64,000 bases of DNA from the NCBI GenBank assembly GCA_964016885.1, contig OZ024754.1:13950001-14014000 (forward strand), written 5' to 3'. Source of the DNA: Eledone cirrhosa. Taxonomy: Eukaryota. Position numbers and translations under genes: made by a program. Below are positions 178 through 63,109 of this stretch, piece after piece. Numbering within the stretch: the stretch's first letter is position 1; every line of letters begins with the position of its first letter. The notes beneath the pieces are model-generated. The model did no database searches. It was not told the DNA's origin and saw only the letters and a list, made by a program, of their open reading frames with translations.

Positions 178-322
178 AACATGTGTCTGTACGGCTGGTT
201 GGCAGTGACAATGAATTTGAAGGTCGTGTTGAAGTATTCTTTAATGAACAGTGGGGTTCAGTATGTGACAGCAATTGGGACCACAATGATGCGTTGGTTG
301 TTTGCCGAATGTTAGGATACAA
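178..322 (+). CDS. SRCR1 exon A
   Basis: tag|[51 protein letters not shown]|gtaagt; 145 nt. Confidence 0.95.

Positions 323-63109: not shown

What the first reader, a model, noticed from the sequence alone, without database searches (positions are those of the whole stretch)
178..63109. Linker-less array of at least 14 diverged SRCR domains with a rigid two-exon code that allows in-frame chimeric domains
Seen: all 14 A exons are exactly 145 nt (phase 1 to 2). All 13 B exons start with T and are 158-164 nt (phase 2 to 1). A exons end in AA, AG or CA, so any A joined to any downstream B gives an open codon (AAT, AGT or CAT). Skipping one exon frameshifts, but skipping B(n)+A(n+1) or A(n)+B(n) keeps the frame and yields hybrid or deleted domains. 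The domains are visibly diverged rather than homogenised. Established: group A SRCR domains are split across exons, whereas vertebrate DMBT1 (group B) has single-exon, near-identical domains with Ser/Thr linkers. Inference: a candidate invertebrate pattern-recognition protein that could be diversified by paired-exon skipping.
Basis: partly seen in the sequence, partly recalled or inferred. Interest (0 to 1): 0.75.

Follow-up and report, generated by a model that had tools for sequence, protein, structure and literature searches.

The report
Octopus 18-domain SRCR scavenger protein gene
This is the middle of an octopus gene with 18 scavenger-receptor (SRCR) domains, each split over two exons as in other SRCR genes of the same genome; the domain order matches related octopods, so it is likely an ordinary secreted binding protein rather than a splicing-based diversity generator.

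Summary
The exon observation holds: 14 A exons of 145 nt and 13 B exons of 158-164 nt, phases 1-2-1, one open frame. The window is the middle of a ~95 kb gene model: signal-peptide exon, 18 six-cysteine (group A) SRCR domains, 4-residue tail, 1875 aa, no TM, CUB, ZP or protease. Octopus sinensis and Argonauta models have the same 18 domains in the same order (83-86% identity). The 'code' is not special. The phase-2 intron sits at the same place in 33 of 35 SRCR first halves sampled on seven other contigs. A codon ending in T cannot be a stop. Flanking exons break the rule, and 6 of 136 domain-deleting joins create stops. Halves look co-adapted: domain 3 lost both cysteines of one cross-exon disulfide, also in Octopus and Argonauta. 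Intronic inverted repeats do not favour frame-keeping loops. One error-rich O. vulgaris model joins A9 to B10, the only hint of a chimera. Splicing itself was not tested: no junction-spanning RNA was obtained. Verdict: ordinary new member of a known kind.

The parts
1..64000 (+). Central part of one ~95 kb gene model (G000:C14:13943460-14038387). Outside the window: predicted signal-peptide exon (C14:13943460-13943523), A0, B0 upstream; B14, A15-B17 and a predicted terminal exon (from C14:14038374, E-F-T-G-stop) downstream
178..322 (+). A1 exon, 145 nt (SRCR first half, carries C2 and C3)
2398..2561 (+). B1 exon, 164 nt (SRCR second half, C5-C8)
8927..9071 (+). A2 exon
9918..10081 (+). B2 exon
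10979..11123 (+). A3 exon; C2 replaced by Tyr
12471..12634 (+). B3 exon; C7, the disulfide partner of C2, is also lost
15281..15425 (+). A4 exon
18964..19127 (+). B4 exon
23205..23349 (+). A5 exon
23442..23605 (+). B5 exon
24308..24452 (+). A6 exon
28213..28373 (+). B6 exon, 161 nt; ends in T, so joins to A8, A9, A11, A12 or A15 give stop codons
28939..29083 (+). A7 exon; covered end to end by a 160-nt contig of run X2 (RNA is a guess), 16 differences
29651..29814 (+). B7 exon
30668..30812 (+). A8 exon
33904..34061 (+). B8 exon, 158 nt
35916..36060 (+). A9 exon
37364..37521 (+). B9 exon, 158 nt
38374..38518 (+). A10 exon
40411..40574 (+). B10 exon
42304..42448 (+). A11 exon
45597..45760 (+). 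B11 exon
52527..52671 (+). A12 exon
54120..54283 (+). B12 exon
56636..56780 (+). A13 exon
60184..60347 (+). B13 exon
62965..63109 (+). A14 exon

Best explanation
The locus holds 18 tandem, diverged group A SRCR domains, each on an A and a B exon, and likely encodes one secreted, linearly spliced SRCR-only protein of 1875 aa that would act as a multivalent, cation-dependent scavenger or agglutinin. Shown: exon anatomy, one open frame, 106 cysteines (18 x 6 - 2), 35 N-glycosylation sequons, and the same domain order in two other octopod models. Inferred: the 1-2-1 phase pattern comes from old tandem duplication of a phase 1-1 SRCR module that already carried a phase-2 intron. Each A/B pair then co-evolved as a fixed domain, so ligand breadth is encoded in the germline by 18 different domains rather than made by splicing. 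The signal-peptide and terminal exons are predictions from sequence and ortholog models. The immune or mucosal role is inferred from family knowledge only (about 0.55).
For: The 38-exon model gives 1875 aa with a single terminal stop. The signal exon (21 codons + 1 nt, GT donor) matches the length of the Octopus N-terminus and ranks first among ATG..GT candidates of that length in ~96 kb upstream. The terminal exon reads E-F-T-G-stop, against E-F-M-G in Argonauta and E-Y-T-T in Octopus. O. sinensis XP_036362482.1 has all 36 half-domains in linear order (85.7% identity); Argonauta GAB1603362.1 has all 18 domains in order, with B7 shortened (83.0%). Pfam finds no curated non-SRCR family in the three models scanned. 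The same intron position occurs in 33 of 35 A-type matches on 7 other contigs, with the other 2 one codon later in the same phase; 22 of 28 B-type matches have a first donor-like site in phase 1. Domain 3 lacks both C2 (A3) and C7 (B3) here and in O. sinensis, O. bimaculoides and Argonauta; C2-C7 is a disulfide (PMC3100851, passages). Acidic cation-site residues co-vary between cognate halves (rho 0.57, p 0.014, n 18) but not between shifted pairs (0.00, -0.16). Inverted intronic repeats enclose an even number of exons in 43 of 86 intron pairs, against 43 of 88 for direct repeats and 324 of 666 overall. SRCR is listed among class 1-1 shuffled modules (PMC3927616, passages).
Against: The ortholog proteins are gene models, and I could not see their RNA support. 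The O. vulgaris model CAI9728058.1 has an in-frame A9-B10 join. Co-evolution statistics are weak: the acidic-site correlation is 1 of 12 tests and would not survive Bonferroni correction. Of 16 Mantel tests, the only one supporting cognate pairing is the raw nucleotide test (r 0.38, p 0.011), and it vanishes after rate correction (r 0.02). The domain-3 double loss is one event (1 in 18 by chance). The signal exon matches the O. vulgaris N-terminus at only 6 of 21 residues. Only 5 of 18 domains keep both DD and HxED, so most may not bind by the canonical cation site.
Confidence: 0.85

Rival explanations
1. Regulated paired-exon skipping (B(n)+A(n+1) or longer) makes chimeric SRCR domains and so a repertoire of recognition proteins.
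For: All 153 A(i)-B(j>i) joins are in frame and open, and 136 of 153 keep an even cysteine count. The O. vulgaris model joins A9 to B10. Inverted repeats enclose B11+A12 and B15+A16.
Against: The layout is shared by other SRCR arrays in the genome. The O. vulgaris model has four other irregular joins (B0-B1, cut B3, cut B7, cut A16 to A17), which points to misprediction. The O. sinensis model is linear, and no isoform-numbered member was among the 2 of 3 cluster members read. The paired cysteine loss in domain 3 and the lack of parity bias in inverted repeats argue for fixed pairs. Skipping also shortens the chain and only re-pairs halves of similar domains.
Confidence: 0.07
2. The array varies at the DNA level: unequal crossing-over between repeat-rich introns adds or removes domains or makes A/B hybrids between individuals, as for human DMBT1 alleles.
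For: Direct repeats of at least 100 nt link 88 of 666 intron pairs. DMBT1 alleles have 8-13 SRCR-SID units (PMC3100851, passages).
Against: There are 18 domains in the same order here, in O. sinensis and in Argonauta. Domains are only 34-64% identical, with no near-identical pair, unlike DMBT1 (88-100%, PMC7043408, passages).
Confidence: 0.08
3. The gene is linear as in the best explanation, but the protein is structural or adhesive (extracellular matrix, mucus or secretion scaffold) rather than an immune recogniser.
For: Only 5 of 18 domains keep the full acidic site. The protein is linker-less with 35 sequons. Its 83-86% conservation across octopods is not what an arms race would suggest.
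Against: SRCR proteins broadly bind microbial surfaces through these sites (PMC7043408, passages). DMBT1-like proteins occur in O. vulgaris skin mucus and are higher in wild animals (PMC11431876, passages); whether this gene is among them is unknown.
Confidence: 0.35

Closest known systems
Octopus sinensis XP_036362482.1 / UniRef A0A7E6F6A5 ('DMBT1-like'), O. bimaculoides XP_052826276.1, O. vulgaris CAI9728058.1, Argonauta hians GAB1603362.1
   Same: One-to-one orthologous domains in the same order, SRCR-only, short C-terminal tail, shared cysteine loss in domain 3, 83-86% identity.
   Different: The O. bimaculoides and O. vulgaris models lack some exons, probably through misprediction or assembly gaps (inferred). 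The O. sinensis model starts 11 residues later than the O. vulgaris one.
Group A SRCR domains (MARCO, SR-AI, Mac-2BP, LOXL2; neurotrypsin also among the PDB hits)
   Same: Six cysteines and two exons per domain (PMC3100851; members listed in PMC10855680); PDB sequence hits for the O. sinensis ortholog.
   Different: Here 18 copies stand alone, with no collagen, lysyl-oxidase or protease part.
Human DMBT1/SALSA/gp340
   Same: Secreted multi-SRCR protein; GRVEV-like motif and acidic cation-site residues are partly kept.
   Different: DMBT1 is group B (8 Cys, single exon), has Ser/Thr linkers, near-identical repeats, and CUB and ZP domains. None of these is present here, so the database name is a repeat-content label, not orthology.
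Invertebrate SRCR-only arrays of sea urchin and sponge
   Same: Multi-domain SRCR-only proteins made by domain duplication (PMC10855680, passages).
   Different: That paper reports one exon per domain in sea urchin and three in sponge; here there are two.
Dscam1-type splicing diversification (recalled, not from a call)
   Same: Only the idea of half-domain exons being recombined.
   Different: Dscam uses clusters of mutually exclusive alternatives for one half-domain. Here A and B strictly alternate, and no cluster of alternatives exists.

Membership tests
SRCR superfamily, group A | SRCR domain above the Pfam PF00530 cut-off | tested here: met
   exon halves over cut-off; 18 stretches in the O. 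sinensis and Argonauta models
SRCR superfamily, group A | Six conserved cysteines, no C1/C4 | tested here: met
   17 of 18 domains have 6 Cys; domain 3 has 4
SRCR superfamily, group A | Domain encoded by two exons | tested here: met
   (genomic prediction; definition from PMC3100851)
SRCR superfamily, group A | SRCR fold and disulfide pattern | tested here: inconclusive
   single-sequence AlphaFold of two O. sinensis domains failed (pLDDT 37); PDB sequence hits at E 1e-29 to 1e-212
DMBT1/SALSA | Group B domains, 8 Cys, single exon | tested here: not met
DMBT1/SALSA | Ser/Thr-rich SID linkers | tested here: not met
   domains are back to back
DMBT1/SALSA | C-terminal CUB and ZP domains | tested here: not met
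   predicted stop 4 residues after the last Cys; ortholog models end the same way and have no CUB or ZP
DMBT1/SALSA (works-like) | Cation-binding acidic residues | tested here: inconclusive
   DD plus HxED intact in 5 of 18 domains; residue mapping from PMC7043408 by motif spacing
DMBT1/SALSA (works-like) | Binds or agglutinates microbes | not testable with these tools
   needs a bench assay
Dscam-type splicing diversifier | Clusters of mutually exclusive alternative exons | tested here: not met
   strict A-B alternation, 36 exons, no extra full A or B copies in 264 kb
Dscam-type splicing diversifier | Intronic pairing elements that steer exon choice | tested here: not met
   long inverted repeats show no bias to frame-keeping loops; short conserved docking elements could not be tested without orthologous DNA
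Dscam-type splicing diversifier | Many isoforms in RNA | tested here: inconclusive
   no junction-spanning record obtained

The most novel reading that the evidence does not exclude
Octopods use paired-exon skipping in this 18-domain array to make chimeric SRCR domains (up to 153 A-B recombinants) and shorter chains, giving a splicing-generated repertoire of secreted recognition proteins. The A9-B10 join in the O. vulgaris model would then be a real isoform.
Probability: 0.07. Interest if true: 0.7.

Novelty: new member of a known kind. Interest (0 to 1): 0.2.

Why it matters
As it most likely stands, this is a clean gene model for a conserved octopod SRCR-only secreted protein that databases label DMBT1-like and often mis-splice. 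It also offers a neat case of a disulfide pair lost jointly across two exons. That is useful for cephalopod immunity catalogues but not surprising. If chimeric skipping were real, it would be a new route to somatic receptor diversity in an invertebrate, recombining domain halves along a linear array. Since other two-exon SRCR arrays in this genome share the layout, it could apply to them too.

Tried and rejected
RNA search on window 28200-30830: no RNA holder listed; 21 rows were 'RNA?' guesses with shares of 0.05-0.06, and 3 rows were of unknown kind with shares of 0.66-0.68. A first laying on a longer stretch returned nothing. The second laying (28200-30290; 4 of the 24 runs) showed the three RNA? 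runs lying mostly on an intronic repeat, with no exon-exon joint among the joints shown (27 more were not shown); B6 and B7 had essentially no cover in them, which is no evidence. Run X22 matched the stretch with 0-1 differences per long contig and may be the assembly's own source, so it is not independent. Single-sequence AlphaFold of two O. sinensis domains: pLDDT 37, discarded. Mantel tests of A- versus B-half similarity were mostly null. Typicality and cross-species rate correlations between halves were null (9 of 12 tests). A-B and B-A intron lengths do not differ (p 0.91). The first signal-exon scans missed the exon because the thresholds were too strict; it was found by reading the sequence and checked. 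The script had a wrong pattern and was redone. Earlier scan findings: none returned. Literature listings showed no title on this gene or on chimeric SRCR splicing; an accession search found 0 papers. The supplement of PMC11431876 could not be read and may name the mucus DMBT1-like accessions. Rejected: DMBT1 orthology (group, linkers, CUB and ZP all fail), pseudogene (open 1875-aa frame, conserved), and several separate genes (ortholog models span all 18 domains).

Full report
Observation. A scan of all AG..GT intervals recovered exactly the 14 A and 13 B exons described. A exons are all 145 nt, phase 1 to 2; B exons are 164 (10), 161 (1) or 158 (2) nt, phase 2 to 1; all 13 start with T. Domains are back to back and 34-64% identical. 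The description is accurate.

Whole gene. The window is G000:C14:13950001-14014000 of a 3.0 Gb genome. Profiles of the A and B exons run over 100 kb on each side found one more domain upstream and, downstream, B14 plus three more domains: 18 domains, 36 exons, strictly alternating, no extra full copies. A 64-nt ATG exon with a hydrophobic 21-residue product lies 2.5 kb before A0. An exon reading E-F-T-G-stop lies 3.1 kb after B17. Joined in silico, the 38 exons give 1875 aa, one terminal stop, 106 Cys and 35 sequons. No TM, CUB, ZP or protease part is predicted. Both end exons are predictions.

Relatives. A search with exon B8 found the O. bimaculoides 'DMBT1' model. Searching with that protein found Argonauta hians and O. 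vulgaris orthologs far above other hits (63-72% identity against about 31-41%), and the cluster look-up added O. sinensis. The O. sinensis model has all 36 half-domains in the same order; Argonauta has all 18 domains, with B7 shortened. Identities to my model are 83-86%. The genome is therefore an octopod, and the array is old and stable. The two O. bimaculoides models lack A1, B1, A2, A5, A8 and B10 (one keeps a stub of A1) and carry intron-like filler. I read these as mispredictions but could not inspect those genomes or their RNA.

Is the code special? No. Any tandem copy of a module flanked by phase-1 introns, with one internal intron, keeps the frame when an even number of exons is skipped. 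SRCR is named as a class 1-1 module (PMC3927616, passages), and group A SRCR domains are described as two-exon (PMC3100851, passages), although sea urchin and sponge differ (PMC10855680, passages). The Pfam search of this genome gave 135 matches. I fetched 20 stretches around split matches on seven other contigs, leaving out the matches on C2, C4, C5, C9 and the single-exon-looking array on C11. In them, 33 of 35 A-type matches have a GT at the identical phase-2 position and 2 have it one codon later; 4 of the 35 are partial tandem copies and one is doubtful. 22 of 28 B-type matches have a first donor-like site in phase 1. The open junction codons need no explanation: a codon ending in T cannot be a stop, and AG is the donor consensus (15 of 35 in the paralogs). 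The code also fails where it could be tested: exons outside the window differ in length and end letters, and 6 of 136 B-to-A skips give stops, including the single-domain deletion B6 to A8.

Are halves interchangeable? Two of the three disulfides of such a domain, C2-C7 and C3-C8, cross the intron (pattern). Domain 3 has lost both C2 and C7, here and in O. sinensis, O. bimaculoides and Argonauta; 17 of 153 chimeras would carry an unpaired Cys. The cation site defined in DMBT1 (PMC7043408, passages) also spans both exons by motif spacing, and its acidic residues co-vary between cognate halves (rho 0.57, p 0.014) but not shifted ones. This is one of 12 correlations in that call, and the Mantel tests were mostly null, so the statistical support is modest. 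Inverted intronic repeats are abundant (962 pairs) but enclose even and odd exon numbers at background rates under three thresholds (Fisher p 0.45-1.0).

RNA. This fits a spliced ortholog but bridges no junction. Splicing is untested.

Mechanism and function. Most likely a single linear transcript gives a secreted, glycosylated rod of 18 different SRCR domains that binds several ligands at once; five domains keep the full acidic site. DMBT1-like proteins are reported in O. vulgaris skin mucus (PMC11431876, passages), but the supplement was unreadable, so this gene is not tied to that result. An immune role is inferred at about 0.55; a structural role is the main rival.

Verdict. Group A SRCR membership is met; DMBT1 membership fails on three features; a Dscam-like design (recalled) fails on anatomy. 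It is a new member of a known kind, interest 0.2. The chimeric-splicing reading is not excluded (about 0.07) and would be worth about 0.7.

Noticed in passing
window 9738-9954: A 117-nt tandem duplication copies the B2 acceptor and the start of B2. It leaves a possible 51-nt in-frame phase 2-2 mini-exon (9801-9851) with AG and GT ends and no stop, a candidate small cassette.
   Followed up: partly
B7 exon, window 29651-29814, in ortholog models P0003 and P0004: The Argonauta and O. vulgaris models both cut B7 short at about the same Ser codon, removing C7 and C8; O. sinensis and O. bimaculoides use the full exon. Shared misprediction or a real alternative donor; the codon here is AGC.
   Followed up: partly
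G000:C11:40689022-40748924 (-): A dense array of about 20 SRCR matches, most spanning the full domain without stops, so probably one exon per domain, unlike the two-exon arrays. Cysteine class not checked.
   Followed up: no
L021 (G000:C27:22021500-22022420) and L022: In the C27 SRCR array, the 3' part of an A exon with its donor is repeated four more times in tandem, and part of a B exon is duplicated.
   Followed up: no
L036 (G000:C15:41351880-41352043): An A-type exon whose two parts lie in different frames: a frameshift, either an assembly error or a broken gene.
   Followed up: no
G000 contigs C1, C3, C7, C10, C12, C15, C27: At least seven further multi-SRCR loci with the same two-exon layout.
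   Followed up: partly
window 3544-8854, 19182-22074, 24865-28096: Long minisatellites (36-mer x147, 22-mer x132, 43-mer x76) fill three introns; the last two abut or lie near exons B4 and B6.
   Followed up: no
L039, C1 array (match at 19116 and 3321): A-type halves in the C1 array deviate at conserved positions; one has Ala in place of C2, a possible second case for testing paired cysteine loss.
   Followed up: no
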